This document shows, one piece after another, positions 21,373-64,000 of a stretch of 64,000 nt of DNA. The translations under genes and the position numbers were made by a program. Source of the DNA: Ruditapes philippinarum (taxonomy: Eukaryota); assembly GCF_026571515.1 (NCBI RefSeq), contig NW_026856878.1, forward strand, positions 186,001-250,000, given 5' to 3'. Within the stretch, counting starts at the first letter, position 1; each line of letters begins with the position of its first letter. The notes below the pieces were generated by a model. It did not search any database, had not been told where the DNA came from, and saw nothing but the letters and a program-made list of their open reading frames with translations.

Positions 21373-22878
21373 AAACAAGAGGGCCAAGATGGCCCTAGAT
21401 CGCTCACCTGACCCGTCAAACTCATCCGAACAATTACCTAGACAAGCGTTCTGACCAAGTTTCATGACAGGTGTGTCAAAAATGTGACCACTAGTGTTAA
21501 CAAGGATTATCCATATTTGAGCAGTGTGACCTAGTTTTTGACCCAAGGTGACCCATATTCGAGCTTGACATTCGAGCAATTACCTAGACAAGCATCCTGA
21601 CCAAGTTTGATGATAATTGAGTAAAAAATGTGACACTAGAGTGTTCACAAGGTTTTTCTATTTTAAGCTCATGTGACGTAGTTTTCCATCCGAGATAAAT
21701 CATGTTCAAACTTATCCAAGCATCGACTAGACAAGCATTCTGACAAAGTTTGATGATGATTGGGTCAAAAATGTGACCACTAGACTGTTCGCAAGGTTTT
21801 TCTATTTTTAGCTCCTGTGACCTAGTTTTCCACCCGAGATGACCCATGTTCGAACTCATCCAAACAATTGACTAAACAAGCATCCTGACAAGGTTTCTTA
21901 ATAATTGGGTCAAAAATGTGACCACTAGAGTGTTCACAAGGTTTTTCTATTTATAGCTTCTGTGACCTAGTTTTTCATCGGAGATAAACCATGTGCAAAC
22001 TCATCAAAGCAATTATCTAAACAAGCATCCTGACAAAGTTTGATCATGATTAGGTAAAAAATGTGACCACTAGAGTGTTCAAAAGGTTTTTCTATTTTTA
22101 GCTCCTGTGACCTAGTTTTTCATCAGAGATGACCCATATTCAAACTCATCTGAGCAATTGACTAGAAAAGCATCCACACTTAGTTTGATGATGATTGGGT
22201 AAAAAATGTGACCACTAGTGTTCACAAGGTTTTTCTATTTATAGCTCCTGTGACCTAGTTTTTCATCAGAGATGACCCATATTCGAACTCATCTGCGCAA
22301 TTATCTAAACAAGCATCCTGACAAAGTTTGATGATGATTGGGTCAAAAATGTGACCACTAGAGTGTTCACAAGGTTTTTCTATTTTTAGCTCCTGTGACC
22401 TAGTTTTTCATCAGAGATGACCCATGTTCGAACTCATCCAAGCAATTGACTAGACAAGCATTCTGACCAAGTTTGATGATGATTGGTTCAAAAATGTGAC
22501 CACTAGAGTGTTCACAAGGTTTTTCTATTTATAGCTCCTGTGACCTAGATTTTCATCGGAGATGACCCATGTTCGAACTCATCCAAGCAATAATCTAAAC
22601 AAGCATTCTGACAAAGGTTGATGATGATTGGGTCAAAAATGTGACCACTAGAGTGTTCACAAGGTTTTTCTATTTTTAGCTCCTTTGACCTAGTTTTCCA
22701 TCCGAAATGACCCAGTTTCGAACTCATCCGAGCAATTGACTAAACAAGCATCCTGACAAAGTTTGATGATGATTGAGTCATAAGTGTGACCACTAGTGTG
22801 TTCACAAGCAATTGTGGACGTACGACGGACGACGGACATTCACCGATCCTAATAGCTCACCCTGAGCAAGCTCAGGTA
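21373..22878 (-). mobile_element. Non-autonomous Helentron-like element carrying about 10 x 145-bp tandem repeats
   Basis: On the minus strand: 5' acctgagcttgctcagggtgagc hairpin and (cgtc)n, 145-bp periodicity (atgtgacc at 21771, 21916, 22061, 22206...), 3' caggtgagcga then a gggcca-tct-tggccc hairpin and tcttgttt. Confidence 0.85.
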
Positions 22879-26900: not shown

Positions 26901-29900
26901 TAAGTAAGATTAGAATACTGGTATGTACTGTGTGTTACTCTTTCTGGTACAGTTAACGATAGATCTTTGTGAGAAATTAACACTAAATTGACTATAACGA
27001 GATGCGAAATCCCGTTGCTTTTTTCTTATATAGCCCACTATCATTTACTTTTTCAATATTTTACAGGTTATCATAGGAACAGTTGTCTCTTATTTTCTGA
27101 ACTTATCGGACTCTTATAACGTGGCTGTTGTCTCGGATATACCTACCGGGTGATATTTCTTTTTCTTTTTAGCTCGACTATTCGAAGAATATGAGAGCTA
27201 TTGTAGTCGCCCCGGCGTCGGCGTCGGCGTCCGCGTCGGCGTCTGCGTTGGTTAAAGTTTTTTGTAAAGTCAAATATCTCAATTATTACTTGAGATATTC
27301 AATTGAAACTTACAATACTTATTAATAGTAACAAGGTACATCAGATAGACAAGTTTGATAACTCTGCCTACAATATTGACAGAATTATGCCCCTTTTTAA
27401 CTTAGAAATTTTGGTTAAAGTTTTTTGTAAAGTCAAATATCTCAATTATTGCTTGAGATATTCAATTGAAACTTACAATGCTTATTAATAGTAACAAGGT
27501 ACATCAGATAGACACGTTTGATAACTCTGCCTACAATATTGACAGAATTATGCCCCTTTTTAACTTAGAAATTTTGGTTAAAGTTTTTTGTAAAGTCAAA
27601 TATCTCAATTATTGCTTGAGATATTCAATTGAAACTTACAATACTTATTTATAGTAACAAGGTACATCAGATTGACAAGTTGGATAACTCTGACTACAAT
27701 ATTGACAGAATTATGCCCCTTTTTAACCTAGAAATTTTGGTTAAAGTTTTTTGTAAAGTCAAATATCTCAATTATTGCTTGAGATATTCAATTGAAACTT
27801 ACAATACTTATTTATAGTAACAAGGTACATCAGATTGACAAGTTGGATAACTCTGCCTACAATATTGACAGAATTTTGCCCCTTTGGAACTTAGAAATTT
27901 TGGTTAAAGTTTTTTTGTAAAGTCAAATATCTCAATTATTGCTTGAGATATTCAATTGAAAATTAAAATACTTTTTTATAGTAACAATGTACATCAGTTT
28001 GCAAAATTGCATAACTCTGCCTGCAATATTTTCAGAATTATTTGCCCCTTTGAAACTTAGAAATTTTGGTTAAAGGTTAAAGGTCTTCAAAGATATTTAC
28101 TTGAAACTTTACACATGCACTTAGGGTCATAATTGGAAATTGGAGGGTCATAATTGTATGTCACTGACCAAGTTCCATAACTCTATCTTGCATTAAGGCT
28201 GATTCATATCCCCTTTCCTACTTAGTCTCTTGGTTAATGTTTACATGCAAGTTTTACATATCTCAATAACTATTAAAGATATTTATTTAAAACTTCACAT
28301 ATGCATTTAGGGTCATAATTGTAGGTCACTGACAAAGATCCATAATTCTATCTTGCATTTAGGCTGATTTTTCTCCCCTTTTTCAACTTAGAAATTCATT
28401 TGTAAGCTGTTATCTCAATAACTACTAAAGGGTTTGTGCCTTTTTTGGGACAATTTTATGCATTCATAATAATTAAGCAGTGATTTACTTGATAAAACAT
28501 CTTAAGAATAAGCCTTTGTACATTTTCTGTCAAATTTATGTATTCATAGGTAATTAGTATTATTATACTCAATAAAACACCCTTGTGGCATTACCTTCCG
28601 AATAGTCAAGCCAATACTGTTTAATTAGACTCTCTCTGAGGCCTATAACAAGAATTTATAAAAAAAATTAGCCCTTTTGTAAACTTAAAAAATTTAACAT
28701 TATCAAGGCTCTTTTACTATCAAGCACTTAGAATAGTCGAGCGTGCTGTCCTACAGACAGCTCTTGTTTAAATATATAATATATTTTTTACAATATAATA
28801 GTACAGGGAAGTGAGATAACTAATTGTTTTAATCATTTTAAATACAATTCAGTTTTGCTACTACGGACTTTGTTGCAATATTAAACCGCTCTTTTTTAAT
28901 TGATCTTAATTGATCTTATCCAACTACAATAAATTATTACTTAAGTATGCCTTTTCTCGTTGACTTACACTTGAACAAATATCGGCTGTTAAATGTATTA
29001 ACGATTGGAAGCTTCCAATGGCAAATACTTAAGATGTTTACCTAATGTCCTTTCTAGTTTACCTTTGATGAATGTCAGTAGCGTTTCTCTAATCTCACTA
29101 TTCTCACTGGATAACAGTTTGTGAATGTCATTGTCATTAACATTAAGCTATTATTTCAATGCTTCGAAACGTTTTCATGTTCTTACTAGTCTACAATATC
29201 AGTAATGAGTGCTCATAGTTTTAAGCTTATTATTCTGTTTAGTTTACATGTATCTTTGGCCAAAAACTGCCCCCGTCAGTTTTGTTGCTAATGCCATTAT
29301 TTTAAAGATATCTTTTACTTTCTCTAGGCTACCTATGGCAAACACCAATGGGTTAAAGCGTTTATCATGGACCTTACTAACGGATGCTTTCCCTATTGTT
29401 ATTGTCATCTTTTCAATTTCAATCTCCATCGCAAAATCTCTTGCAAAGAAGCACAATTATGAAGTGAATGCAAATCAGGTTTTTATTTCTATTTACAAAA
29501 TTAATGAGTTTAGCATTTTATTATTCTACATATTATCAATCATATTTTATTGCTATATACATGTATATACAATACAATACAATACAATACAATACAATAT
29601 TATTATTATACTTCATATGTAGACTTGGTTAAATGTTAGTTTTTTTCAATACTCTTTTTAGTCGATTGAACCGGATTTTTTTCCAATGAACGTTGCAGAT
29701 CTACGATTGTTTTATTATGACGAAACGCGAAGACTATTATTTAAAACGAACCATTGGGTACTGTACACATTAGTACAGAGGACTTTTATTGAAAGATGTC
29801 ACCTTATATTGACATTGCGCTAATACTGTTATATATACATGATTGTATATATGTGTTACCTTTGTAAAAGATATATAGCTCCTTTCAATAAGATTGTGCA

Positions 29901-35446: not shown

Positions 35447-36455
35447 ACTGGTTGGAGAAAAAACCCTCCACTTAATAACTTAATTTTAGCAATATCTTTC
35501 TCATCTGTTGAAAATTTACGATTTTGACAAACATGAACAAACTTCGGTTTAAAGTTTTGCTACAAAAATTATTATGAAACTGGCTTTTCTTTATGAATGA
35601 GTATCCAAACATTGTCTTTATGGCCCTGAATGAGGAATCCAAACATTGTCTTTATGGTCCTGAATGAGGTATCCAAAACATTGTCTTTATGGTCCTGAAT
35701 TAGGTATCCAAAACATTGTCTTTATGGTTCTGAATTAGGTATCAAAAACATTGTCTTTATGGTCCTGAATGAGGTATCCAAAACATTGTCTTTATGGTCC
35801 TGAATTAGGTATCCAAAACATAGTCTTTATGGTCATGAATGGGGTATCCAAAACATTGTCTTAATGCCCCTGCATGAGGTATCCAAAACATTGTCTTTAT
35901 GGTCCTGTTTGAGGTATCCAAAACATTGTCTTAATGCTCCTGCATGAGGTATCCAGAACATTGTCCTTATGGTCCTGAATGAGTATCCAAAACATTGTCT
36001 TTTTGGTCCCGAATGAGGTATCCAAACATTGTCTTTATGGTCATGAATTAGGTATCCAAAACACTGTCTTTATTGTCCTGAATGAGGTATCCAAAACATT
36101 GTATCTATACTTTGACAGCAGATACAGTCAAAACTTCCAAATTTTTTAATCAAACACTACATGGAAAACCAGCCTAAATGATTGACTTTTACATATATTT
36201 CATTATTTTTTAAAGAAATTGACAAAGTTTGCGGGAAAACTATTTTAAAAAATATCTTTTTATATGACATTAAATTTTGAAAAAGACGTTAACCTTAAAC
36301 CCGAAAATTTAAAATTTTTTTAAACTTGAAAATTTTACCAAAAGCCGTCCCTTTTCTTTTTGACCAAGTAGATTTTTATTGGAATTTTTTTTAAAACAAT
36401 TAAAATTACCAACTGTTGAGGTTATATATGTGAAAGAGTAATTTCTCCGACCAGT
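35447..36455. mobile_element. ~1-kb TIR element containing a 35-bp tandem array
   Basis: Ends actggttggagaaa and tttctccgaccagt are inverted repeats. Confidence 0.6.
35595..36102. repeat. 35-bp minisatellite, about 14 copies
   Basis: Unit atgaggtatccaaaacattgtctttatggtcctga. Confidence 0.93.
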
Positions 36456-37573: not shown

Positions 37574-40500
37574 TTATTTACAGGGCTTATTTACAAACGA
37601 TTTCCACTTCCAAAGAACATGATTTCCGCAACAGATACCAAAACTAGGTGAAAAAACTTCTTTTCCACAACAGTAAGAGTCACCACCAAATTTCTTTGAT
37701 ACAATGGCACCGTCGCAACATAAATGTAGCCCAGGATCATAACAATCTCTTTGACAGCACGCAGTGTTATGTTTGTTTATGCTTATAACAACATTACAGT
37801 CACAGCAAATTTGTCGTGAACTATCCATAGTTTTGTTGCAGCAACAGCAATCATCATATTTGGTCGTTTTTTCAATAATGCGTCCTTCACAGCACAAACA
37901 TCGGTCTGGATCATAGCTTTTTTGATTACAACAACGCGTATTCGAACCGGCAAGTTTATCTTGTACAACACCATCGCAACACATTTCATTGTTGTCGTTA
38001 AAGCTAACACCATCACAGCAACGTGTTGTTTTGATTCCTTTCATTGGTTGTACAATTTCTGTATCTTTGTTATTACAGCATACATGCGAATAGGGATTAA
38101 ATGTGTCATTTCCACAACAAAGCAAATCATTTGTCATTGTCTTTTTCCTAACAGTTTCCTCACAGCACAATTCAGTCTTTAAATTTATGGGTTTACCACC
38201 ACAACAATCAGAACTTGAAATACCTCCAACTATATCATATAATATACCTTGACAACATATCTTTCTATTTACATTATAACTTATCTTTCCGCAGCAACGC
38301 GTGTTTTCAGGTTTTCCGCTCAAAATTTGGTTTGATTTCTCCTCACAGCATAGTTCAGTTTCAGGATTAAAACTTTCGTTTCCACAACAACTAAAATCAG
38401 TTTCACGAATTTTTCTAACAACGTGCCCCTTTTCACAACATAATTGAGAAAGAGGGTTAAAGGCGATGTCGCCGCAGCATTCAGCATTAGCACTGTGTTT
38501 TTCTATCACTTTGTCCAGACAACAAAGATGTGTGTCAATATTAAATGACATCATGTTACAGCATTGATGATCGGTCAGTCTCGATTTTTTAACTACAGTT
38601 TCATTGCAACACAGATCTAAATTTATATCATAACTTGTATGTTCACAACACGCTGTTGTGTTACTAAGTTTATCTTGTACAATGCCTCGGCAGCATATCT
38701 GCGTTTGTGTGTCATATGGCTCTTTGTTGCAGCAAGCATTATCGTCTTTATCATTTTTAGGATATAACTCATGGCCGTCACAGCATATATGAGTTCCTGA
38801 ATTATAACTTATTGCACCACAACACACTGATCGTCCTTCTATTTTAGGTTGAGGATTATCATTGCAGCATATTTCTGTATTTGTATTGAAGGAAATTTCG
38901 CCACAGCACCAATTATCGTCCTTTTTTACCCTTTTGCTCAGTTTATTATCACAGCATACATGCTTCTTAGAATCATAGCTCTTGGACAAACAGCAAAGGG
39001 TATCATCTCCTGCTACTTTCATGTTTGGTTTGCCATCACAGCATAACTGTGTAGCATCATTTAATGTTGTATTACCACAACAACAGTTGTCGCGCAAATT
39101 TACTTTATCTATTACTTTATTGTTGCAACATAAATGGGAATTTACGCTCATACTATTATTCCCACAGCAAATGCCAAATTCGACATTGTCGATTACATTA
39201 AGCGGCTTACCAGCGCAACAGATCTCATCACGAGTGTTATACGTTGTAAAGCCACAACAAAAATTATCGTCAATTGTTCTCTTTTTTCTGACATTACCTT
39301 GACAACAAATTTCATTCTTAGTGTCGTAACTTTGACTTTTGCAACATGCAGTATGACTTCTATTTTGTCGTTGTTGTACTCGATCACCACAACATATTTC
39401 AGTGTCAGTGTTAAAGGTATTTACCGTACCACAACAATGATTGTGTTCTTTATCTGATTTTTGCACTAAAAAGGTACCATCACAACATACATGATCATTT
39501 GAATTATAGCTGTACCTATCACAACAAAGTGTTGACTCCCCTTTCTGCAATTGTGGAACGTTGTTACAACATACTTCTTTAAGGGTATTGATCGGTTTGT
39601 TACCACAACAACTATTATCGGACATGTCTTTTTTTAATACTACTGAATCATCACAACAGATTTCCCGTTTTTCATCATAAACTTTCGTAGAACAGCATTT
39701 CAAAGATGAGTTTTTGTTTCTTTTGTACGGATTTCCATAACAGCATATTTCGTTGTTGATGTTAAAGGTCATGTTTCCACAGCAAGCATCATCAATTTCC
39801 GAATGTTTTTGAAATATATTGTGTCCACAACAAAGTTGACTTTTAGTGTTAAAACCTTTGTCGTAACAGCAACCTGTCCCATTTACTCCACCAATAAGAG
39901 GTTGTGGTAATCCTCCACAACATATTTCTAATTTTGCATCAAAAGCAGAGTTTCCACAACATTGATTGTGCTCAACGCCTCGTTTTTCATATAATTCTGA
40001 ATTACAGCAGACCTTTAAGTTTGGATTATAGCTTTTTGTTCCACAACATTCGCCGTTTAATCCACCTTCTCTGACAAATTTACCTTGGCAGCATATGTGT
40101 GTCTTTGTATTAAATGGCGAAGAACCACAACACCAATTGTCTTCAGTGTTAGTTTTAGAGACCACCCCGACATCAGTACAACAAAGTTCAATATCAGGGT
40201 TATAGCTTTTATTATAACAACATTTTGTTATAGCACCAGAAGTAAGGGGCTGTGGGTACATACTACTGCAACAAATTTCTTTTTCTGCATTTATAGTTTT
40301 TGCACCACAACACAAATTATCGTCTACCTTTCCTTTTGGTATTATATTGTTAGCACAGCACAAGTGAGATTCGGGATTGTAACCTATATGACCACAGCAT
40401 CTGTCAGCGGTAGTTGAACGATTCTTAACTAATGAGTCGCAGCATATTTCGTTCCTTGAATTAAATGTCGTGGTGCCACAACAGTACTCGTCGGTTGATT

Positions 40501-43500
40501 TATGTTTGGTCACCACTTTTCCATCACAACATAATTCGGTTTCCTTACTGTAACTGGTGTCCCTACAACAAGTATGCATCTCCCCTCCTGGTTGTGGTTT
40601 TCCTAAGCAACATACTTGGTCGACAGATGTTATAGGAACATCACCACAACAGGAATCGTCGGATATCGAATTTTTCTTGATAACATTATTGTTGCAACAA
40701 ATGTATTTTTGACTGTCATATCCCACAGCTCCACAACACATAAAGTAGTCAGTGGTCATAGCAAATGGGTTTCCTAAGCAACATATCTGTGTCTTAGAAT
40801 TAAAAGTAGCATAAAGTCCACAACAATGGTTGTCATCGGGATCGGATTTAAGTCGTAAGTCACCAGTGTCACAACATACTTTATACGAGGAATTATAAGC
40901 CTCCTTTCCGCAACACTTGTCTCCGATGCCTGGTTCATTTTCGCAACATAGATGGACATGGGCCTGCATTGATTTTATGCCGCAACAACAGTTATCACTT
41001 GCGCTTTCTTTTATTACAACCTTGTCGCGGCAGCATAATTGTGTAGAAGTGTTATAACTCATTTTACCACAACAGTTGGTGGTATCACCATAGCTAATCT
41101 GGACACGCTCGTCACAGCATAATTCATTTTTCAGATTGTATGTTTCATTTCCACAACAATAATCATCATTCAATTTATTCTTTCGCAAAACACCTCTAGC
41201 GTCACCGCAACATACCTCTTGTTTTGTATCGATCGCATGTTTGCCACAACAATCTATAAGTGAACTTGTCCGATAATGTTTTATTCCGTTACAACAAATA
41301 TCAGTTACGATATTCATGGGACGTTTTCGGCAACACACATTATCCATAGGAGACTCTTTTTGAACTACTTCATCATCACAACACATTTCTATGTGTGGGT
41401 TGTAGCTGTCAATACCACAACATTTTGTGACAAGTCCAGCAACTGCTTTGTTCGGAAAGGAGTCTGCACAACATATTTCTGTTTTCGTATCATATGGTTT
41501 TACACCACAGCACCAGTCGTCAGACGTCTTTGATTTCTTGTATAGGCGACTGTCACAGCATATATGTTTATGTGGATCGTATGATTCATTTTCACAGCAG
41601 CGGGTATTTTCTCCATAATTTGGCTGAACAACAGCATTACAGCAATATTCCGTTTTTGTATTGTATGGAGTTGAATTACAGCACAAGTTATCATTCCGAT
41701 GTCTTTTTTTAACCACATTATTGTCACAACATATAAAATTTTCAGAATCATAACTTACTTCCTTACAACAACGCGTCCTATCTTTCGACATTCTATGTTG
41801 AGGTACACCCATGCAACAAATTTCAGTCTCACCATGAAATGTACTCATTCCACAACAGCTATCGTCAATTCTGTTTTTCTTTTCTACTATTACACCAGAG
41901 CAGCATATATGTGTATGCATATTGAAACTGGTATCTCTGCAGCATGTTGTAGGGCCATCATATTTTATTTGTGGATTACCATCACAGCATACCTCATTTT
42001 CAATTCTGATTGGTGTCATACCACAACATATATTGTCTTGAATATGGCGCTTTTTGACAATTTTCATATCACAACAAAAATGTGTGTTAGAATTATAACT
42101 TTCACTTCCACAACATTTAGTCGCATGTTTAGCCATTATTTTGTTTGGAACATCGTTGCAACAAATTTCAGATTTTGAGTTAAATGTCGAATTACCACAG
42201 CACAAGTTATCATTTGAATTATTTTTGAGACGGATATCTTTTGGACCACAGCACATTTGTTTTGTTGTGTCAAAACTTAAATCAAAACAGCATCTTGCAA
42301 ATTGTCCTCCTTCAGCCTGGCTTGGTATTCCATTACAACATATTTCGTTTCTTAAATTGATTGAAGTTCTACCACAGCAGCAGTTATCACCAGTGCTTCT
42401 CTTACGAATAACTCTTTGATCACAACACATTTGTGACCTAGTGTCAAATGAAGCTTTTCCGCAACAGTCAGTATACCCATCACTATAACGTCTGTTATGA
42501 ACGCCATTGCAACAAAGTTCAGTTCTAGAATTAATTGTTGATGATCTACCACAGCATGAATCATCATTCTTATGTCTTTTTCTTCTTACACGACCTTCAC
42601 AGCACATTTGAAATCGTAAGTCATAACTCTGGTCGTTGCAGCATGAAGTATATTCATTACCAATTCTATTTTGCTTTTTTCCAAGGCAGCATATGTCAGT
42701 CAAAGAGTTCATCGGTTCACTAGCACAACAGCAATCATCATCATTGTCAGATTTCTTAACTACAGTCTGATCGCAACATAAATGGGTTTTAGAATTATAA
42801 CTTTCAGATAAACAACACTCTGTAAGTCTACCGCCCCGTTTTGGTTGTGGGCTTTTCCCTAGACAGCATACTTCTGTTTCCGTGTTGTAAGTGTTGTTTC
42901 CGCAACACTCATTATCAAAAATATCTTTCTTATCTGTAACAGCATTATCACAACATAACTGTATTTGTGAGTCATAGCTATAATCATTGCAACATTTTGT
43001 CTTATCACCACTATGTTTTATATCTACTCTTCCATTGCAGCATGTATGCGTTTGTGTAGTGTATGGTGTCATTCCGCAACACCAATTATTGCTAACGCTA
43101 CGTTTTTCTATAACTGAATTAGAACAACAAATATGTGTTTCTAAATTATAGCCACTTTCTTTGCAACATGCTACATTTGAAATTCCAGTAAATTTATAAA
43201 CGTTGCCATCACAACATAACTCGTTGCGAGGATCTGTTGTGTTACTAGTACCACAACATTGTTTGTCTTCAGGCTTTGACTTAATCCTTATCGTGTTATC
43301 TGGACAGCAAAGCTGGTTTCTAGTTCCGTAACTTTTATTTCCGCAACAAGCAGTATATTCTCCATCTACACGTTTATGTGGTTTTTCAAAACAACATATT
43401 TCTCTGCTTAAATCAAAAGTAGTTTCCCCACATCTAATGTCGCTATTTTCAGTGCGTTTATCATAAACAGTATTATAAGAACAAAGTTGTGTGGTCGGAT

Positions 43501-46500
43501 CGTAGCTCTTATGATGGCAGCATTGAGTATAATTACCTTTTTTAGGTTGTTTTGTACCAAGGCAACATATATGTTTTCGAGTGTCGATTGTTGTGATGCC
43601 ACAACACCAGTTATCTGTAAGGTCACCTTTCTTTGTGACAACAGTATCATAACAGCATAAAGATTGTGTTGAGTCATAGCTTTTGTTATGACAACAAAGT
43701 GTATGATGGTTAAACAGCGGATTTGGTGAATCCATACAGCATATTTCTGAATTAAAGTTAAATGTGGTCTCACCACAACATCCGGTGTCACCGTCTTGCT
43801 TCATTGTGACAACTTTATTATGACAACAAATGTTTTTTCTGGTATCATGACTTCTTGTTCCGCAGCATTCGTAAGAGCTTTCATTCTTTGGTTGAACATT
43901 TCCATCGCAGCAAAGTTGACTGCTTGAATGCATTGTTTTAGCTCCACAACATGTATCTTCATCAGAGTGATTTTTCTTTGCTACTAAACCATCACAACAC
44001 ATTTCATTAATAATGCTGTAACTCCTTTTACCACAGCAATGTGTAAAAATAGAATCCAATTTGTTTGTTACATGTTGATTGCAACAAATTTCTTTTGAAT
44101 CTTCGAATGTTGAATTACCGCAACATGAGTTATCGTTAATACTTCTTTTCTTTACAAGTTCTTCTTTACAACATAAATAATCGTCTGCATTGTAGCTTTG
44201 AAATCCACAGCATTTTGTATTTTCCCCTTTAAGTTTACTTGGATGGTATCCACCGCAACATAATTCAGTCCTAGGGTCAAATGTTTTTGAATTTCCACAA
44301 CAACTAGTGTCATTTCTGTTTCTCTTTTTAATTACACCTATATTACAACATAAGTATAATTCAGGGTCAAACGAAAGAATACCACAGCACTGGGAAGACT
44401 CATGTTCGTCTTTAGGCTGAGGCGTATGATTACAACATATTTGATTTCTTGCGTTAATTGTTGTATTTCCACAACATAATGTATCATGGCGAGAGGATTT
44501 GTTGATAACTTTGCCATCGCAACATAGTTGTCTGCGAGAATCAAATGTGCTTTTTGTACCACAGCATTGTTTGTCTCCTGAATTTGACTTAATTTTAATC
44601 GTCTGATCAGAACAACAAAGCTTGCTTCTAGTTTCGTAACTTCTATTTCCACAGCACGCAGTATTTTCTCCCACTACACGCTTATTTGGTATTCCATTAC
44701 AGCATATTTCTTTACTTAAATCAATGGTTGATTTTCCGCAAATTATGTCACTTTCTTCACTGCGTTTATAAGACAGTACATTCTTATAACAAAAGGTGTC
44801 TTCTGGGTTAAAGCTTTTTTGATGGCAGCATTGAGTATGTTTACCTAATTTAGGCTGTTTTGTACCAAAGCAGCACATATCTTTTCGGGTATCGATTGAT
44901 GTGCTTCCACAACACCAATTATCTGTACGGTTACTTTTGTTTATCACTACAGTATCATTACAGCACAAAGATAGTGTTGAGTCATAGCTTCTATTACGAC
45001 AACAAAGTGTTTCATGGCTAAACAGCACATTTGGTGAACCCATGCAGCATATTTCTGAATAAAAGTTGATTGTGGTCTCACCACAGCACCCATTGTCACC
45101 ATCTTGTTTCATTGTGACAACTTTATTATTACAACACATGGATTTTCTTGTATCATGACTTCTGGCTCCGCAGCATTCGTAAGAGCTTTCATTCTTTGGT
45201 TGAACATTTCCATCGCAGCAAAGTTGACTGCTTGAATGCATTGTTTTAGTTCCACAACATGTATCTTCATCAGATTGATTTTTCTTTGCTACTAAACCAT
45301 CACAACACATTTCATTAATAATGCTGTAACTCCTTTTACCACAGCAATGTGTGAAAATGGCATCCAATTTATATGTTACATTTTGATTGCAGCAAATTTC
45401 TTTTGAATCTTCGAATGTTGAATTACCACAACATGAGTCATCGTTGTAACTTCTTTTCTTTACAACTTCTTCTTTACAACATAAATAATTGTCTGCATTG
45501 TAGCTTTGGAATCCACAGCATTTCGTATTATTTCCTTTAAGTTTACTTGGATGGTATCCACCGCAACATATTTCAGTCCTAGGATCAAATGTTTTTGAAT
45601 TTCCACAACAGCTAGTGTCATTTCTGTTTCTCTTTACAATTACACCTTCATCACAACATAACTTTACTCTCATGTCAAACGAATGAATACCACAGCATTC
45701 GGTGGTAGACTCATGTCCGCGTTTAGACTGAGGTGTATAATTACAACATATCTGATTCCTTGAATTAATTGTTGTATTACCACAACATAATGTATCATCG
45801 GGAGAGGCTTTGTTGATAACTGTTCCATCACAGCATAGTTGTCTGCGAGGATCTAATGTGCTGTTTCTTCCACAACATTGGCTGTCCCCTGAATTTGATT
45901 TAATTTTAATCGTCTGATCAGAACAACAGAGCTGACTTCTAGCCCCGTAACTTTTATTTCCGCAACAAGCAGTGATTTCTTCCTCTACACGTGTATTTGG
46001 TATTCCATTACAGCAAATTTCTTTACTTAAATCAATGGTTGTTTTTCCGCAGATCATGTCACTTTCTTCACTGCGTTTATAAGAAAGCGCATAATTAAAA
46101 CAGAGAGAGTGTTCCGGGTTATAGCTTTTTTGATGGCAGCATTGCGTATGTTTACCTAATTTAGGCTGTTTTGTACCAAGACAGCATATATCTTTTCGGG
46201 TATCGATTGATGTGCTTCCACAACACCAATTATCTGTATGATTATTTTTGTTTATGATTACAGTATCGTTACAGCATATAGATTGTGTTAAGTCATAGCT
46301 TTTGTTAAGACAACAAAGTGCATCTCGGTTAAACAGCGGATTTGGTGAACCCATACAGCATATTTCTGAATTAACGTCGATTGTGGTCTCACCACAGCAT
46401 CCATTGTCTCCGTCTTGTTTCATTTTGACAACTTTATTATTACAACAAATGGATTTTCTTGTATCATGACTTCTGTTTCCGCAGCATTCATGAAAGTTTC

Positions 46501-49500
46501 CATCCTTTGGTTGAGCATTTCCATCGCAGCAAAGTTGACTCCTGGAATGCATAGTTTTAGTTCCGCAACATATATCTTCACCAGGGCGGTTTTTCTTCGC
46601 CACTAAACCATGACAACACATTTCATCAATAATGTTGTAACTCCTTTTACCACAGCAGTCTGTCAAAATACCACTGACTTTAGTTTGAACATATTGATCG
46701 CAACAAACTTCTTTTGAATATTCGAATGTAGAATTTCCGCAACATGAGTCATCATTATAACCTCTCTTCATTACAATTTCTTTTTGACAACACAGATAAT
46801 CGTCTGCATTGTAGCTTTGGAATCCACAGCATTTCGTATTATTTCCTTTAAGTTTACTTGGATGGTATCCACCGCAACATATTTCAGTCCTAGGGTCAAA
46901 TGTGTTTGCTTTTCCACAACATCTAGTGTCAGCTCTGTTCTTCTTTAAAATTAAATCTTCATCACAACATATGTGTACTTCAGGGTCGAAAGAATGAATA
47001 AAACAACATTGGGAAGACTGTCCGCTTTTAGACTGAGGTGTGTAATTACAACATATTTGATTCCTTGAATTAATTGTTGTATTACCACAACATAATGTAT
47101 CATGGGGAGAGGCTTTGTTGATAACTGTTCCATCACAGCATAGTTCTCTACGAGGATCAAATGTGCTATATGTATTACAACATTGGCTGTCTTCTGAATT
47201 TGACTTAATTCTAATCGTCTTATCAGAACAACAAAGCTGGCCTCTAGCCCCGTAACTTTTATTTCCACAGCAAGCAGTGTTTTCTCCCTCTAAACGTATA
47301 TTTGGTATTCCATTACAGCAAATTTCTTTACTTAAATCAATAGTTGTTTTTCCGCATATTATATCACTTCCTTCACTGCGTTTATAAGAAAGAGAATGAT
47401 TAACACAAAGAGAGTTTTCGGGGTTATAGCTTTTATGATTGCAGCATTGGGTATGTTTACCTAGTTTAGGCTGTTTTGTACCAAGACAGCAAATATCTTT
47501 TCTGGTATCGATTGATATGCTTCCACAACACCAATTATCAGTATGATTATTTTTGTTTATAATTACAGTATCATAACAGCATAGAGCTTTTTTGGAGTCA
47601 TAGCTTTTGTTATGACAACAAAGTGTATATTGATTAAACAGCACATTTGGTGAACCCATACAGCATATTTCTGAATTAAAGTCAATTGTTGTCTCACCAC
47701 AGCACCCTTGGTCGCCATTTTGTTTCTTTTTGACAACTTTATTTTTACAACAAATTGATTTTCTTGTATCATGACTTCTGTTTCCGCAGCATTCATAAAA
47801 GTTTCCATCCTTTGGTTGAACATTTCCATTGCAGCAAAGTTGACGGCTGGAAAGCATTGTTTTAGTTCCACAACATATATCTTCATCAGAGCGATTTTTC
47901 TTAGCTACTAAACCATCACAACACATATTATCAACAATGCTAAAACTTTGTTCACCACAGCAGTCTGTGAAAATACCATCGACTTTATTTTTAACATATT
48001 GATTGCAACAAATTTCTTTTTTGGCTTCAAACGTGTGATTTCCACAACATGAGTCATCATTGTAACCTCTCTTCTTTATAATGTCTTCTTGGCAACATAA
48101 ATAATTGTCTGCATTATAGCTTTGGAATCCACAGCATCTGGTATTATCTCCTTTAAGTTTTCTTGGATGGATATCTCCGCAACATATTTCAGTCCTCGGG
48201 TCGAATGTTGCCTTTTTTCCACAGCAGCATGTGTCATTTCTATTTCTCTTTCCGACGACACCCTCATCACAACATAAATGACTTTTAGGGTTGAAAGAAT
48301 GAATACCACAACAATGGGTCAAATCACCTCCGATTTTCGGTTGCGGTGTATCATCACAGCATATTTGATCTCTTGAATTAAATGTTGTATTTCCACAACA
48401 TGTTGTATCATGACTGGAAGCTTTCTTTACAACTGTTCCATTACAACATAGTTCTTTTGCCGGATCTAAAGACTTATTATTGCAACAACGAGTATGATTA
48501 CCAGATATTCTTCTATTAACATAACCTAAACAACATATGTCCTCAGTCGTGTTCATGCTAGCATTGCCACAGCAACAGTCATCATTTTTATGTTGTTTAG
48601 TAACAATGGTATTGTTTTCACAACAAAGTGATCGATCCTTGTCGTAACTTTGTTTTCCGCAACAATCAAACTTCTGTAAGTTTCCAGTTTGTGGATTTCC
48701 ATCGCAGCATATTTCATGCGGAGCCTCAAATGTAGTATTGCCACAACAGCCATTATCATTTAAATCATTTTTCTTTACAACCTTGCCATTACAGCACAAA
48801 TGTGTGTCAGAACTGTAGCTTGATTCTGCGCAACAGAGCGTACTCGTTCCATATTTCCTGTCTGGAATATTGTTACAACAAATTTCGTTTTTACTACTAT
48901 ATGTCTTATTACCACAACACCAATCATCTTCTGAGCTAAGTTTTTCTAAAATGAAATTTCCATTGCAACATAAATGGGTAGCAGAAGAGTAACTTTCCGT
49001 TTTACAACACAACGATTCATCACCTGATATTTTAGTCTGTCGTATGTCATTGCAACAGATGTGTTTCAATGGATTGAATGTTTTATTTCCACAACATGCA
49101 TTATCGTCTGCATGTTCTTTCAAAAGAAGCTGTGTATCATTACAGCAAATTGCTGACATTTTATTATAACCCTTAGAGCCACAACAGTCTCCTGTATCTA
49201 TATTTACTTCGTATGGAATACCTTCACAACACAGCTCCTTATAAGTATCAATTGTCGATTCATGCCCGCAGCAACCATTATCTCTTTCATCCCTCTTGCG
49301 CCTTACCTTATCATCACAACAGATATATGTTGTCGTATTATAGCTAACGTTCCCGCAACAGGTAAATGTTTCACCATTTTTCTGTGGATTCCCGTCGCAA
49401 CAAATTTCGTTACTAGACATGGTAGTATTTCCACAGCATATGCTATCTATTTCTGTATTTTTCTTTACAATTTTACCTGCACAACACAACTGAGTACTTG

Positions 49501-52500
49501 GGTTATAGCTTTTGTTTTTGCAACATTTTGTGTCTTCCGAATTTTTGGTCTTTTTTAGTTGCTTGTAATGACCGTCACAACAAATTTCTCGTTTTGTATT
49601 GAATGTTTCTTCACCACAACACCAGTCGTCTGAATGTTCTGATTTCTTTCTTATTTGTCCATCACAGCACAATTGTGTTTCTATGTTGTAACTTTCATTA
49701 TAACAACATTTATATGTATCCTTATTTGCTACGTTTTGGGGTATGTTTGAGCAACAAATACTTTTCTTTGAATTCATTGACCGACCACCACAACACCGAT
49801 TATCATCCGGATGATCCCTTTGAACAAGTTGCTTTCCATCGCAGCATAACTGCATTTTAGAGCTGTAAGAATTTTGGAAACAGCACATTGTGTCATTGCC
49901 TCCAATACGTTGTTGTTTGTTTCCCATACAACAAATATCCTTCTGGTTGTTCATTGAGGTATTACCACAGCAACAGTCGTCCTGGTCTGACGTTTTATAC
50001 ACAATTTCTCCATCACAACATATCGAGTCTTTTGTATTGTATCCAATTCCATGACAACACTGCACATTACCACCCCCCTTTTCCGGCTTTCCGTTGCAGC
50101 ACAGTTCAACATCGGTGTTAATAGTTGTGTTGCCGCAACATGAGTCATCTTCTGAGTGTTTCTTATTCACAACATTCCATGCCCCATTTATTAAAGTCTG
50201 GCAACATATGGAATTTCTAGAGTCATAACTTTTGTTATGACAACACTGTGCATGTTCACCACCAATTTTATCATTAGGAGTGTTTGAACAACATATTTGT
50301 GATTTAGTGTTCATAGTGTTACCTCCACAGCACACGTTATCACTTTGTCTTTTCTTTTTTATAAGAGTTGTCCCATGACAACAAATATGTATATTTGGGT
50401 CAAAACTGTTTGTTTTACAGCATTTTGTTTTATGTTTGCCAACAGCAGGTTCTGGATTACCATTGCAGCAAATTTCGTCAGCGCTATTAAACGATTTATT
50501 ATTGCAACACCAATTATCACTGTGTCTCCGCTTAGTAATTACATTACCATCACAGCATATGTGGCTGCTAACATTGTATGAGAGACTTTGACAGCAGCCT
50601 GTTTTTGTTTGACCACCAATTAATGGTTGCGGACCCTTTTCACAACATATTTCTTCGTTTGAGCTCATAGTTGTATTCACACAGCAACCGTCATCAGCAG
50701 CAGATTTCTTTTTTCTTATTTCCAAATTCTCACAGCACATCTCTTTCCTGATACTATATGCTCTATTTCCACAGCAGTCTGTGAAATCTCCGTCTACTTT
50801 TGACTGACGTATGTCCATGCAACAAATTTCTGTTTTGGTATTGATAGAAGAATCTTCACAGCAGCTATCGTCATTTACACTTTTACGGTCGAATAGTTTC
50901 ATATTGCAACAAATCTTTTGCGTTTTGTCGTAACTTGTGTTTCCACAGCACCGCGTATCTTTTCCAATCTTTGGTTGCTTAAATTGACCATCACAACACA
51001 TGTGAACACCCGTGTCATAAGTGTCATTACCGCAACACCAATTATCGGCATTTCCAGTCTTCTGCATCAATTTGTTATTACAACACAAATGACTGTTTAA
51101 GTTATAACTGTCCTTTCCGCAACATCGAGTTTTGTTTAGATTATCATATATAGGTTGTACATTCATGTTGCAACATGTTTCATAATATGAATTAAATGTC
51201 TCTCCACCACAGCACCAATTGTCGTCTGGTTTAGATTTCTTTGTAATTTGATTATTACAACAAATATGGGTTTTGGAGTTATAGCTTTGTTTCCCGCAAC
51301 ACATCCAATCTTCACTGAAACTAGCTTGTGGGATACCTTGGCAACAAATACGATTTGAACTATACATCGTTGTATTTCCACAGCAATAATCGTCTTGTAA
51401 TGTCGTTTTCTTTTTTATTTCATTCGAGCAGCATAAATTACTTTGAATGCTATAGCTAGTATCTCCGCAACAAGAAGTTGGTTCTTTAAATTTCTTATTT
51501 CGTTTACCAAGGCAACAGATATGAGTCTTACAATTCATTGTTGTATCTCCGCAGCAACAGTCGTCGTTTTCATGTACTTTTAAGAATACTCTATCATTAC
51601 AACATACATATTTCTTAGAATCGTAACTTTTTCTGCCGCAACAAAAATAGTCATCGTTAATTTTAGGTTGCGGCGCACCATCGCAGCACATTTCTTTCAG
51701 AGAATCCATTGTTTTATTGTCACAACAACAGTCGTCAGATAAACTACGTTTTTGTAAAATCCGCTTTCCCTCACAGCAAACGTATTTTGTTCGGTCATAA
51801 CTTTTATCTAAACAGCATCTTACATCATTTGCCATTGGCGCATCTTGTATAGTATTCATACAGCATATTTCAGTGTTCGGGTTCATTGACAATAATCCAC
51901 AGCAACATGAGTCATCTGAATTCCTCTTCTGTATACGCTTCCCGTCACAACAAAGATATTTTCGCGAGTCATAGCTGTTGTTTCCACAGCACTGTGTGAA
52001 CTCTGTACCTATTAACATCTGTCGATTACCATCACAACATATTTCTTCATTAGCATTTATTGGAACTTGACCACAACATACCCCTTCACTATCGTCGTTT
52101 TTAGACACAATCTTACCATTACAACAGAGGTGTTTATTGATTGCTGCAGCTTTATCCTCACAGCAAAAAGATGTTTCCACATTCGAAACTTTTCTTGGTA
52201 TACCCTGACAACATATGTCACTTTGTGAATTCATTGTAGAATTCCCACAACAAATATCATCTTTTAAAGATCTTTTCTCAATGACAGTATCAAAACAACA
52301 CATTTGCGTTCGGTAGTTGAAACTTTGTCCTTTACAACAAACTGTACTATCAACAAATTCGTGAATTGGTTGTGGGTTACCATAGCAGCATGTCTCGATG
52401 TTTGTGTTCATACTTGAGCTTCCGCAACACCAGTTATCATTTTTATTATTTTTATTTATGATCAAACTATTGCAACATATATAGTTATCTGGATCATAAC

Positions 52501-53517
52501 CTTTGCGTCCACAACATTTAAAGTGATGACGATTAGTTCGATTTGTTACTTCACCTTCACAGCAAATGTGTGTGTCTCGGTTAAAAGTAGATATTCCACA
52601 GCACATATTGTCCTGTGTGTTATTTTTTGAACTGATTGTTATTCCGTCACAACAAATATGTGTCTGAGGATCAAATGACCTGTTTTTACAACACTTCATG
52701 TTTCGAGATGTAATTTTACCACCACAGCACATTGATTCCTTTGAATTATAGCTTTGTTTTCCGCAGCAGCGTGTACCTCGTTTGAACAGTTTTCCACGTC
52801 GACCATTACAACATATCTGAGTTTTAGGATTATATGTTCCATGTCCACAGCAACCAAGATCCCTTTTGCTCGATTTCTTAACAATAGTTCCATGGCAGCA
52901 AAGATGTTTTCTACTGTCATAACTTCTTTTCCCGCAACATCTCGGAACAGATTTTCTCCTACCTCTATGTTGTACCTCGCCATCACAGCACATATCTTTC
53001 TTACTATCAAAACTGTTCGTACCACAGCATTGTGTTCGTCCCTTATACTTTGGTTGTACGGTTTCATTACAACATACAGCTTTATCTGGATTAAAAGTCC
53101 TTTCCCCACAACAACACGAGTCCTTGAGATCACCTTTTGTCATGAGTTTCTTACCATCACAACAGACCTGCTTGTGTGGGTCGTAACTTTTCTTTTTGCA
53201 ACACATAGTGTTATTCACATTTACTAATGGCTGAACATCATCGTCGCAACATATTTGAGTACGTGGATCAAGATTATGTCTTCCACAACATAATGATATA
53301 TTCCCTCCATTTCTTTGTTGGACATGATCGTTACAGCATATTTTCTCGGTTGGATCGAAAGCGGTACCATTGCAACAGCATGTAAGATTTCCTGCCACCG
53401 CTGTTTGAAGCTTTCCATTACAGCAGGCATGTTTGTTTACATCAAATAGTGCTATATAGCTGCCATTGTTGTCACAAGAGTAGCATTTTGCATGAATAGA
53501 AGATTGTAGCAGGTTTC
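37574..53517 (-). CDS. 15,944-nt single coding exon of the galaxin-like protein
   Basis: Uninterrupted 5322-codon ORF in the track; acceptor ttcaattctatag|GA at 53517. Confidence 0.95.
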
Positions 53518-56500
53518 CTATAGAATTGAATGAAACAATCATAAAGATAAAAATGAAATTAAAGATAAAAGCGCGCTCAGGCTTAAAATATTAATCATTA
53601 AACAATCTTAGATGTCCACGTAAACATCTGCAGACTATGGATGCTGTTTAAACCTTTTAATTGAAAGCATATATCTTTCAAAATTTACACATGTAAAGGT
53701 GTTCCTTGATACTTAGGGGTGGGGGGGGGGCTATGGTGATGATGAATTTTATCACTGATACAGACAGAGTGTTTTGAAGGAATGAAAATATTTTGATATT
53801 TTTCGTCATGGTAATTGTCTTGCGTAGGAAATGTCCAGCATTTTAGATATTTTTAAACTTAGCTATCAAAATAAATCAAATTTAAAACCATTTAAATTCG
53901 GAATATACTTCTTTTCATTTTCGTTTATATTTTAGTAATAAAAAGTATTATATCCGTGTGTAAAAGTAAACTAGGGCAGGTGACATAGGAATTGTACTGG
54001 TGATGGCGGTGGTTTCTGCTATTCTGCAAGAAGTTTGGAAAAAAAGTACCTTGACAGCATAATCTTTCATACGGATTGTAACTGTTGTGGCCACAACAAT
54101 AGGTATTATTTCCAGCGATTCGTGGTTGAATCTATAAAATAGATGTAATTACAAATATGAACTTTAAAATGAGCAACGTTTATCAGATTAAAGTCATTGT
54201 TCTAATTCTGTTGATGGTGATATAACTTACAGAAATTTATGTAAGGAAATGTTAATAGATTATGTTTTTACCACGTAAATGAAGGAAAGGAATGACCAAG
54301 TAATGCTGAAATAGTTATTTATACATCTTTCATCTTTTATACATGTTGAATTTACAACTCACGATATGACCGCAACAAATTGACTTTCTCGGGTCGAAGC
54401 TATCTAATCCACAGCATTGTGTACGTTTGGCAGCTACTAATGGAGACGGGTTAGTATTAGCACAACAAATATCTCTAGCCGGATCATACGATACGCTACC
54501 GCAACACTGTGTCCGTTTTCCTGCAATCTTTGGCGCAACCGAGAAACGGCAGCATACCTGAGTCTCAGGGTTAAACTCCTGTAGCCCACAATAATTCCCT
54601 ATATGAAAATAAAGACAACATTCAAGATATAAGAGTGGCTTTTGGCTTGACGGTTTAAACGCCATAAAATCCAAATAAATTACATGTATATTTGTCAATC
54701 CCAACATATACACTTATCATATATGAAACTATAAAACATAAACATACGCTATTGTGATACAAAAAACATATTTCAACGTCTATATAGTATTACCAAAGAC
54801 GTTGAAATATGAACTTTTTTCAAATCAGCATACCCCGGTATATTAAGTGTATGTACTGAGATTGACAAATACACAAATTATTTGGATTTAAGGCGTTCGG
54901 AGCCCTAATTGTCTATGGGCACTATTGATAGTTTCATGCTTATATCTCAAAATTCTCTTATATTTAGTGTATTTTAAAGTTTCAAAAAAAAATATTGGCT
55001 AGAACCACCTTATGCTTCTCTTCTTTTGCTTTTTAGCCATAAGCAGGGTAATATGTCGTGATTTAGTTTTTGAATGGAAATTAAGTACTATTCTGTTTAC
55101 ATTTTCCTTTTTGTGATAAATTAATTTCACATTCAGCACTACTTTTTTAAGGTGTTAAGCACCTTACATGCTCTAAATCTAAATTCAAAACATTATAAAA
55201 CACATGTTTACCCTTTCTAAAGAGAAAACCAATCTTTATTTAGGCACAGTTAATACGTAGTGCTTAATTTTCATTCAGTACATTTTTTTCGGCCTTGAAT
55301 ATCTATGAAATGATATATAAAACTGTTTTATATTATAAATCGGTCATGAAATGGCCTTCATAAAGAGTATTATGAGACACTTCAAAGACAAGTATGCTAA
55401 AATCTAGATTTTGTCCTATTGGCCTGTATAATATGACGATGTTTTCCCCTGTGCCGTCACTTGAAAGTCTGAGGGACTTTTTCGCTAAATCAGGAAGAAA
55501 TTTAAAAAAAAATGGTATGAACAGATGCATTTAAGGAAAATGATTGGGATATTTTCCCTACAGAACCATGTTATTTTAAGGAGCCTGTATTTAGAACTTT
55601 TCCTCCTTGAAACACCTGTCACAATTAGGAAAAAGTCGACGTATTAAGTCGGTGAGATTGCATTTTAATTTTAAATAATTTCCAGTTAAAACAAATCAAG
55701 TTTAGGTATGATTTGCATACATGGGCACTGAAAAAAGGACAATTGTTTGAAATGGGTGGGGTAGTGTATCATTTTTATACATAACTCAACATTTTGAGTA
55801 CAATCAATATTTTTACGTGTGATTTGTGAGCTTAATGTTATCATTTGTTTCTTAAAAATAATCAACAGGAACACATTTTTCATAGAGATAATACTATATA
55901 TCATTACAAGTACAATTCTGAAAAGAGCACTTCAGATATCAGAATTTTGTTTAGATTTTACATAAAGGTGTCCCTTAAAAGCATATAAATAGCATATGCT
56001 GTCAATTTTTCATAGCCTCATAGTGCCCATTGGAGTGGGGGGGGGGGTGTTCATACCTTAAGTGGGATTGCTTTTCACTTTATTCAAGTATATGTATGTT
56101 TGCCTTGAAGGTCCTAAAAAGTTATGTTTGTAATAGACTTTCATAGTATTATTCATGTGCTTAAGCTTTCCTGAGCAGCATATAGTAGTATAGAGTCAAA
56201 CATTTGTCATCTGCCGTTAACCATACCTAGTTCATGTTCGCATATATAGGAAGTCACTTTTATTTCCTCTAGTCTGATTTGACAATGCCCAGAACTATAA
56301 ATTTGAGAGCTTTTGAATTTAACATTGTCTAGTGGACGTCTGAAGAAATGCATAAATCATGTCTCTATGCCCAAAATACTGGCCCGTCCAAGGGTCGCAT
56401 TGACTTGTAATTAGAAGAAATCTAAATTTTCTCCTCACCAATTCAAAGTTCAGTGGTTAGACAGTCGATATGATTAATCACATTGTGGCCCTCTACATGA

Positions 56501-62792: not shown

Positions 62793-63684
62793 GATTTTTT
62801 TCTCTCTGATATTCAAAATGATTAAAAAAATGATATTTCATACAGAAAGTTTAAAAGCGCCGACTTTGCAAAAGGCTTCAAAGAGATGATATAAATACGT
62901 AGTCAAGATTAAGGAAGAATATGATCTAGTTAAAGAAAAGCGTCATGGCTCCATTATGATTTTATCTTTATTGTTAATAAACACCAAAAAGAAATTGAAC
63001 AATGTAACAGGAAGATAAATAAATGTATCATATGCTAGTCATAAGCATGCTAACAAATTGTTTTGCTAAAGGAAATAATAGGAATAAAAATTAACAATTA
63101 ATATATCAAATATATACTCAAACGTGTAAACAAAAGCCAGTCCCCGGACTCTAGACTGAAAACTGGCTACTCATGCAGGCAATCCCTTAACAAGGACTCC
63201 GAACACAATAGTAAGAATGGACAGAATGGGTGTACATGTTTTATTTGGTTATAATTATACACCAGTGGACATTAAAGGTGCATTATGCCTCAGAAACAAA
63301 TAATTTCTTACTTCTTTAGAAAGGGCAATGGTGAATTTTATAATGTTTAAATAATGGTTAAAAGAATGTTAGATGCTTGTCACCTGAAGAAAGTAGCAAA
63401 AAAATGTGAAATACCTGTAATGTGTCATAAACGTAGCAAAATGTAAACAAAGTAGTATTTTAACTTCCATACAAAATACTAATTCACTATAAATGTACTT
63501 ATTGGCACAAAGCAACAGATGAAAAAAGATGGTTCAGATAATCGGCTAATAAGTAAATTTTGGATACTATGAAAGTAACCAAAATTAAAAAGCTTTTGGA
63601 AAAATTAAAATAAAAGCATTTCTGGGGCATAATGGGCCTTTAAAATTGATAATGATTGTAAGACATATATTTCAACCGAAAGTT

Positions 63685-64000
63685 TGGATCTCAAATATAT
63701 ACAATTGGATCTCAAATATATACAATTGAATCTCAAATATATACAATTGGATCTCAAATATATACAATTGGATCTCAAATATATACAATTGGATCAAAAA
63801 TATATAAAATTGGATCTCAAATATATACCATTGGATCTCATATATATATTGGATCTCAAAATATATACAATTGGATATCAAATATATACAATTGGATCTC
63901 AAATAGGATCTCAAATATATACAATTGGATCTCAAATATATACAATTGGATCTCAAATAGGATCAAAAATATATAAAATTGGATCTCAAATATATACCAT
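63685..64000. repeat. 21-bp minisatellite (ggatctcaaatatatacaatt)n running off the window
   Basis: Direct tandem copies. Confidence 0.95.

What the first reader, a model, noticed from the sequence alone, without database searches (positions are those of the whole stretch)
43427..47410. Paired cysteine losses point to a chain-link disulfide topology
Seen: in all four super-repeat copies, one CC has lost its second Cys and the next CC has lost its first (SLCV...DIICG, SLCF...DMICG, TFCY...DIICG, QLCS...DIRCG; about 47352-47410, 46040-46105, 44735-44795, 43427-43490). The four copies share ancestry, so this is one event. The termini fit the same rule independently: the mature protein starts with a lone second-position Cys (NYCG) and ends with a lone Cys after the last CC (ICCGNH...KPCK*). 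Inference: Cys2 of each doublet bonds Cys1 of the next, giving a continuous chain of small disulfide loops. The Cys-less loop may act as a periodic hinge or protease site every ~436 aa.
Basis: partly seen in the sequence, partly recalled or inferred. Interest (0 to 1): 0.72.

Follow-up and report, generated by a model that had tools for sequence, protein, structure and literature searches.

The report
Chain-linked disulfides in giant galaxin protein
This animal gene encodes a galaxin-type protein of over 5,400 residues whose cysteines are lost in matched pairs, here and in many relatives, so each cysteine pair is likely bonded to its neighbours like links in a chain, a pattern already predicted by computer for coral and sponge galaxins.

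Summary
All four copies of a 436-aa block lack Cys2 of one doublet and Cys1 of the next. A colinear paralog with one copy of the block keeps both, so this is one paired loss. The protein is a giant galaxin-repeat protein (PF24748). Covariation in 139 homologs supports the chain-link rule: Cys2/next-Cys1 co-lost 35 times against 3.7 expected for one link type, 4 against 0.2 for the other, with no n+2 signal. The topology is already in print as an AlphaFold prediction, including lone terminal cysteines and interruptions (PMC12419799); my searches found no mapping or covariation test. The hinge idea is unsupported and the protease idea weak. Extra: a third, unpartnered Cys sits at 87 of 274 loops of the type that loses its bond. 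The scan had no look-alike of this sequence; one note describes a bacterial CC-hairpin family.

The parts
37574..53517 (-). Giant final coding exon (about 15.9 kb, 5313 codons plus stop), almost entirely galaxin-like CC repeats: alternating A (C-CG) and B (xIC-C) doublets with a two-hairpin-pair period of about 58 aa
   Evidence: Open frame; PF24748, 27+31 stretches; splice joint 53518/54052 in RNA-like contigs X1 and X3; clusters
54050..54131 (-). Small coding exon (one A/B hairpin pair)
   Evidence: AG/GT ends and open frame; joints 54131/54363 (X1, X3, X4) and 53518/54052
54363..54598 (-). Exon beginning with NYCG after a phase-1 acceptor; most 5' exon found; upstream exon(s) and signal peptide not found
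43199..48455 (-). Four tandem copies of a ~1308-nt (436-aa) block; single copy in paralog C2025
   Evidence: Self-blastn 79-86%; aa identity 0.68-0.79, dN/dS 0.29-0.40
47354..47407 (-). Bond-less loop, copy 1 (C-V ... I-C)
46049..46102 (-). Bond-less loop, copy 2 (C-F ... I-C)
44738..44791 (-). Bond-less loop, copy 3 (C-Y ... I-C)
43430..43483 (-). Bond-less loop, copy 4 (C-S ... R-C)
37838..53380 (-). Thirteen surplus-Cys sites: CCC starting at 53380, 53116, 51907, 51730, 51559, 49975, 48577, 48229, 42733, 42382, 40990, 39085 and CCCC at 37849. The extra Cys precedes an A doublet and has no co-varying partner in the regular array
37577..37900 (-). C-terminal cap with extra lone Cys (37900, 37798, 37744) and terminal lone Cys (37582). 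CCCC and CCxC are shared with paralogs; the terminal Cys is not

Best explanation
The gene encodes a giant (at least 5419 aa, about 600 kDa) galaxin-repeat protein, likely secreted, in which each CC doublet is predicted to start a short beta-hairpin and the second Cys of each doublet likely bonds the first Cys of the next, forming a chain of about 360 small disulfide loops. Two link types alternate: A2-B1 closes a fixed 11-residue loop and is rarely lost; B2-A1 closes a variable 12-16-residue loop and can be lost if both cysteines go together. One such paired loss happened once in this lineage and was then copied four times with the 436-aa block (shown by comparison with paralog C2025). The bond-less loop most likely keeps its fold through ordinary side-chain packing, so it is a tolerated loss rather than a built-in hinge (inferred). 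The protein is most likely an elongated structural or adhesive matrix protein (inferred from the family; tissue not determined).
For: Sequence: 4 of 4 copies. Polarity: the only 2 doublet Cys that differ from C2025 are this pair, against 562 shared Cys. Own-genome paralogs: 15 of 15 B2 losses go with an A1 loss among 510 dereplicated units; C10745 has 16 paired losses and no single-sided one. Outside homologs (150 best of 1205 hits; 644 internal units, 84 ambiguous dropped, 527 after dereplication, 139 proteins; registers set without using Cys columns): B2/next-A1 co-lost 35 times in 24 proteins, expected 3.7, phi 0.77; A2/B1 co-lost 4 times in 4 proteins, expected 0.2, phi 0.39; all longer-range pairs phi -0.06 to 0.06. 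A stricter list has 31 events in 23 proteins, in 24 clusters at 40% context identity. AlphaFold with 114 rows: pLDDT 96.2, each doublet opens a hairpin. The same topology is stated from AlphaFold models in PMC12419799 (section 6 read). Spliced RNA-like contigs and dN/dS 0.29-0.40 indicate a working gene.
Against: No experimental disulfide map. My model output gave no coordinates, so S-S geometry was not inspected here. The A2-B1 link rests on only 4 co-losses, with 10 units lacking A2 alone and 3 lacking B1 alone (8 of the 10 lack the whole A doublet at that register). Whole-doublet losses exceed chance (A1+A2 8 against 1.3; previous B1+B2 6 against 1.2). Of the 8, 2 have a displaced CC, 2 displaced lone Cys and 4 no doublet, which fits both this model and vicinal bonds. 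Events in related proteins are not fully independent: the unit tree needs 11 changes for 19 losses but firm branches force only 1. The AlphaFold alignment is dominated by intact repeats, which may hide flexibility at the bond-less loop. Signal peptide not found.
Confidence: 0.88

Rival explanations
1. Each CC forms a vicinal cyclocystine ring and only terminal Cys cross-link chains (the view attributed to Fukuda 2003).
For: Stated in PMC2726143 and PMC10045328 (passages). Whole-doublet losses occur above chance.
Against: Would leave two free Cys at every paired loss and gives no reason why B2 and the next A1 are co-lost (35 against 3.7 expected; 16 of 16 in C10745). The doublets lie in extended strands in the model.
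Confidence: 0.03
2. B2-A1 is right but A2 and B1 pair otherwise, for example nested (B1 with next A2) or over a longer range.
For: Few informative A2/B1 events (4), none in this genome.
Against: B1/next-A2 co-loss is 0 against 0.3 expected, while A2/B1 is 4 against 0.2. Arrays start with a lone A2 in 21 of 59 cases and a lone A1 in 1. The A2-B1 spacing is 11 residues at nearly all sites.
Confidence: 0.07
3. The bond-less loops are selected processing sites: a cut there is the only cut that separates a chain-linked protein, releasing ~436-aa pieces.
For: The logic follows from the topology. KR is in 4 of 4 loops here and absent from the bonded orthologous loop of C2025. KR/RR is in 10 of 15 bond-less against 17 of 65 bonded loops in C10745 (p 0.005 if counted as independent).
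Against: The four copies are one event, and the C10745 units share ancestry. KR/RR is also in 23 of 83 bonded loops here. It is in 0 of 31 bond-less against 54 of 537 bonded loops in outside homologs, and there is no RX[KR]R in the four loops. The Lys is nearly invariant in this loop type whether bonded or not.
Confidence: 0.15
4. The bond-less loop is a flexible hinge every 436 aa.
For: One covalent staple is missing. The B2 site carries four different residues in four copies.
Against: Same strands and pLDDT 96-97 in the model. Linker length is 14.3 against 14.5, Gly+Pro is not raised, and A1 is mostly replaced by I, V, F or Y in this genome (14 of 19).
Confidence: 0.2

Closest known systems
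Galaxins and galaxin-like proteins (Pfam PF24748; PANTHER PTHR34490 as named in PMC12419799): coral galaxin and Amgalaxin-like proteins (PMC2726143)
   Same: About 30-aa repeats with two di-Cys motifs; predicted hairpin-per-doublet fold; chain-link disulfides as predicted in PMC12419799.
   Different: About 360 doublets against 10-23 in calcarins; a single 15.9-kb exon; a second-order 58-aa alternation and a 436-aa third-order block; surplus third Cys (3 of 856 comparable sites in the 150 homologs); no acidic domain; signal peptide not found.
Calcarins of Sycon ciliatum (PMC12419799, section 6 and passages read)
   Same: [quoted passage not shown]
   Different: There it rests on AlphaFold models only; here it is backed by a polarised paired loss and by covariation. 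Calcarins are short and lack clear internal repeats.
Mollusc galaxin-like proteins: cysrichin of Hyriopsis (PMC10045328, passages), squid EsGal1-10 (PMC12773714, passages), galaxin-like proteins in the quagga mussel byssal footprint (PMC12993968, passages)
   Same: Di-Cys tandem repeats in secreted mollusc proteins; the mussel table lists entries of 149 and 231 kDa.
   Different: Cysrichin has five repeats and EsGal at most seven. No disulfide pattern was reported in the passages seen. Orthology to this gene was not tested.

Membership tests
Galaxin-like repeat proteins (PF24748) | Match to the Pfam Galaxin_repeat model above the curated cut-off | tested here: met
   1686 and 1873 bits against cut-off 28; 27 and 31 stretches
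Galaxin-like repeat proteins (PF24748) | Di-cysteines spaced 10-15 residues apart in tandem | tested here: met
   342 CC, gaps alternating 11 and mostly 13-15
Galaxin-like repeat proteins (PF24748) | Each doublet opens a short beta-hairpin (predicted fold) | tested here: met
   AlphaFold pLDDT 96.2, strand-turn-strand at each doublet; prediction only
Galaxin-like repeat proteins (PF24748) | Cys1 bonded to Cys2 of the preceding doublet | tested here: inconclusive
   Strongly supported by covariation; the bonds themselves were not observed
Galaxin-like repeat proteins (PF24748) | Signal peptide / secretion | tested here: inconclusive
   No 5' exon identified up to the contig end; 103 N-glycosylation sequons in the three-exon model
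Galaxin-like repeat proteins (PF24748) | Single Cys flanking the array at both ends | tested here: inconclusive
   Lone Cys at both ends of the model, but the N-terminus is unknown and the last Cys is Trp in C2025
Galaxin in the strict sense (coral skeletal matrix protein, about 300 aa) | About 300-aa mature protein after a dibasic site (PMC2726143) | tested here: not met
   At least 5419 aa
Galaxin in the strict sense (coral skeletal matrix protein, about 300 aa) | Present in the mineral matrix | not testable with these tools
   No tissue or proteome data; run ids are coded

The most novel reading that the evidence does not exclude
This genome has a family of giant galaxin rods in which one loop type (the KK..DD loop, every ~58 aa) is a tunable site. 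It either carries a spare third cysteine that cross-links neighbouring rods into a disulfide network (87 of 274 such loops against 7 of 277 of the other type), or drops its own disulfide and carries a KR site so that the chain can be cut into defined segments (19 of the 20 paired losses fall in this loop type). Cross-link density and segment length would then be set gene by gene.
Probability: 0.2. Interest if true: 0.62.

Novelty: new member of a known kind. Interest (0 to 1): 0.36.

Why it matters
The galaxin repeat has no solved relative by sequence or fold, and the literature holds two views of its cysteines: vicinal rings (cited in PMC2726143 and PMC10045328) and a chain of links (AlphaFold, PMC12419799). 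The paired losses give evidence for the second that does not depend on AlphaFold, and they show that the two link types are unequal: one is dispensable, the other almost never lost. That makes the topology easy to test with natural variants, and it applies to coral, sponge and mollusc matrix proteins. The topology itself is not a new idea, which limits the interest. The 600-kDa size and the spare cysteines point to a cross-linkable fibre protein family that I found no description of.

Tried and rejected
Single-sequence AlphaFold failed (pLDDT 30.6) and was replaced by the alignment-based run. PDB sequence search: 0 hits at E up to 1. Foldseek: none at E up to 0.001. VIA-align: none at Z 2 or more among 48161 chains; this shows neither a new nor a different fold. 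Two-copy complex prediction of a CCC-bearing fragment: no answer, score 0.00, alignment not used; no evidence either way. No listed run is on record as RNA among the holders; the contig runs are 'RNA?' guesses, though they show GT-AG joints. The word-index protein search gave only 2 hits. The first covariation pass was distorted by loops of other lengths and by array ends and was replaced. Surplus-Cys counts were inflated by a register shift and were replaced. The first motif script had a wrong spacing and returned no fragments. The unit tree (quick method, 60 columns) is poorly resolved. Slippage of a TGT run as the origin of CCC was rejected: loop length is 14.35 with against 14.33 without the extra Cys. 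Pairing of surplus Cys with the surplus Cys of the next repeat was not supported: adjacency is not above shuffles in any of 4 genes, and 40 of 87 are isolated. A literature search linking USH2A's cysteine-rich region to this topology gave nothing relevant, so that link is left out. Supplements of the papers were not opened and may bear on disulfide patterns (PMC12419799 figure supplements, PMC12773714 SI Figs S6-S7).
Full report
WHAT IS THERE. The finding lies in a 5338-codon open frame on the minus strand (37574-53590). RNA-like contigs join two small upstream exons to it at GT-AG introns (joints 54131/54363 and 53518/54052). This gives a three-exon model of 5419 aa, about 600 kDa, with 754 Cys. 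Pfam PF24748 Galaxin_repeat covers it. Doublets alternate between A (C-CG, followed by an 11-residue loop) and B (xIC-C, followed by mostly 13-15 residues). The B-to-A loops alternate between a KK..DD type and another type, giving a 58-aa period. A 436-aa block is present in four copies (79-86% DNA identity; dN/dS 0.29-0.40). Earlier AI notes on this genome call the organism Manila clam; I did not test that.

THE OBSERVATION. All four copies lack B2 and the following A1. The genome holds a family of related open frames, among them 4005, 4704 and 2224 aa. C2025 is colinear with this gene at 57% identity, and its length differs by exactly three blocks (4005+1308=5313). At the orthologous junction it keeps both cysteines. 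Across 4001 aligned columns 562 Cys are shared, and these two are the only doublet Cys that differ.

THE TERMINI. NYCG is at 54596 but begins a phase-1 exon. In four paralogs the equivalent exon is preceded by another CC-rich exon; in three of them the splice sites allow a CC-x-x-x-CG junction. No such exon and no convincing signal-peptide exon was found in the 15.5 kb up to the end of the contig, so the mature N-terminus is unknown. The last Cys is Trp in C2025, and five paralog ends lack a Cys after the last doublet. For this gene the termini are therefore not independent support. Of 59 array starts, 21 have a lone second-position Cys, 1 a lone first-position Cys, 13 a CC and 24 none at that register. 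Of 59 array ends, 32 are CC followed by one Cys and 5 are a B1-only site with no later Cys.

COVARIATION TEST. I took the best 150 of 1205 profile hits, placed hairpin units with a scoring matrix that ignores the Cys columns, and kept internal units (644; 84 ambiguous dropped; 527 after dereplication at 60%; 139 proteins). B2 and the next A1 were both absent 35 times (24 proteins; expected 3.7; phi 0.77), B2 alone 6 times and A1 without B2 13 times. A2 and B1 were both absent 4 times (4 proteins; expected 0.2; phi 0.39). Longer-range pairs gave phi between -0.06 and 0.06. A stricter score threshold gave the same order (23 against 2.4; 2 against 0.1). Against the model, whole-doublet absence is also above chance (8 against 1.3). 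On inspection 4 of the 8 have displaced Cys and 4 lack the doublet, which either model allows. A stricter list of 31 clean B2/A1 events in 23 proteins falls into 24 context clusters at 40% identity. In the genome's own paralogs 15 of 15 dereplicated B2 losses are paired, and C10745 has 16 paired and no single-sided losses. How many of these are independent is unclear: 11 changes on the best tree, 1 forced by firm branches.

STRUCTURE. AlphaFold with a 114-row alignment gave pLDDT 96.2 for 167 residues spanning the first bond-less loop. Every doublet starts a short hairpin. The bond-less junction has the same strands and pLDDT 96-97. The tool gave no coordinates, so bonds were not read from the model. 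No solved structure matches by sequence or fold.

MECHANISM. Shown: repeat architecture, paired loss, its polarity, covariation. Inferred: A2-B1 and B2-A1 disulfides forming a continuous chain (0.88); an elongated hairpin stack; secretion and a structural or adhesive role. The role is by analogy with cysrichin in mantle (PMC10045328, passages) and galaxin-like proteins in the byssal footprint (PMC12993968, passages); squid galaxins suggest an antimicrobial alternative (PMC12773714, passages). Hinge: not supported. Protease site: logically attractive, since only a bond-less loop lets a cut separate the chain, but the evidence is mixed. KR is in 4 of 4 loops here (one event) and in 10 of 15 against 17 of 65 in C10745, but in 0 of 31 against 54 of 537 in outside homologs.

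SURPLUS CYSTEINES. In four giant paralogs a third Cys precedes the A doublet at 87 of 274 KK..DD loops and 7 of 277 other loops, and 19 of 20 paired losses are in the same loop type. It arises by substitution, not insertion, and is rare outside this genome (3 of 856 sites). It persists where the adjacent bond is lost (3 CxC cases in C10745) and has no partner in the next repeat. It changes singly between this gene and C2025: 13 sites are shared and 9 are Cys only in C2025. That retention is about that of an ordinary residue, so single sites are not strongly constrained. It may be a decaying ancestral feature, a semi-buried free thiol (Trp is the next commonest residue there) or an inter-chain link. 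A two-copy complex prediction gave no answer.

COMPARISON WITH WHAT IS KNOWN. PMC12419799 (section 6 read; other passages) already states from AlphaFold models that the first Cys of a di-cysteine bonds the second Cys of the preceding hairpin, that single Cys flank the array, and that calcarins show one or two interruptions. Older papers cite vicinal cyclocystine loops (PMC2726143 and PMC10045328, passages). Searches for galaxin with disulfide (18 papers), disulphide (1), AlphaFold (7) and free cysteine or covariation terms (no galaxin paper among the 20 of 193 listed) showed no experimental mapping or covariation test. I saw most of these only as listings, read passages of six papers, and opened no supplements. 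Most subscription journals are not searched.

VERDICT. The feature is real and the main inference is very likely correct, but it has been published as a prediction. The terminus, hinge and protease parts are weak. What is added is independent evolutionary support, the asymmetry of the two link types, and a family of giant galaxins with spare cysteines. New member of a known kind; interest 0.36.

Noticed in passing
G000:C2025:60678-72692, C10745:178665-192776, C6990:485595-492266 and 462203-463681 (loci L021-L030): A family of giant galaxin-repeat genes with the same 5' exon layout and a shared C-terminal cap (CCCC, CCxC, terminal Trp). C10745 has 16 paired losses and 32 CCC; its last repeats continue in another frame near 178.5-178.7 kb (frameshift or small intron).
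   Followed up: partly
G000:C3621:11175-27249, C3859:85233-114186, C3581:312249-316797 (L031-L035, L037, L048): Genes built of ~200-aa galaxin exon modules, each with a CxxC, one CCC and a terminal CC before a phase-1 intron, so the spare Cys may pair with the leftover Cys of the next doublet there. They also have a VWA-like exon (assignment from recalled motifs, not scanned) and a final exon of 2037 or 4040 aa with a charged, coil-like end.
   Followed up: partly
window 48004-49531: RNA-like contigs of two runs join 49531 back to 48004 with 38 extra letters, suggesting a ~1.5-kb repeat copy-number variant or a related gene copy.
   Followed up: no
window 50654-51133: Two contig forms in each of three runs, one near-identical and one about 9% divergent (33-44 differences in 344-480 nt): a divergent allele or a close paralog not seen in the genome search.
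   Followed up: no
window 53425-53485: At the start of the giant exon an A doublet is split into CxxC with a longer loop, followed by a CCC; this is shared with C2025, C10745 and C6990.
   Followed up: partly
G000:C5390:104419-112525, C7910:866090-869132, C5416:270556-272766: Shorter galaxin genes with simple, near-identical 26-aa repeats; C5390 and C7910 end in a lone Cys four residues after the last doublet, and C7910 is broken into several frames.
   Followed up: no
window 2-858, 5072-5698, 16477-17265, 21419-22808, 27248-28075, 35594-36102, 63684-63996: Non-coding minisatellite arrays (periods 51, 51, 68, 145, 163, 35, 21); the 51-bp arrays account for most of the short open frames.
   Followed up: no
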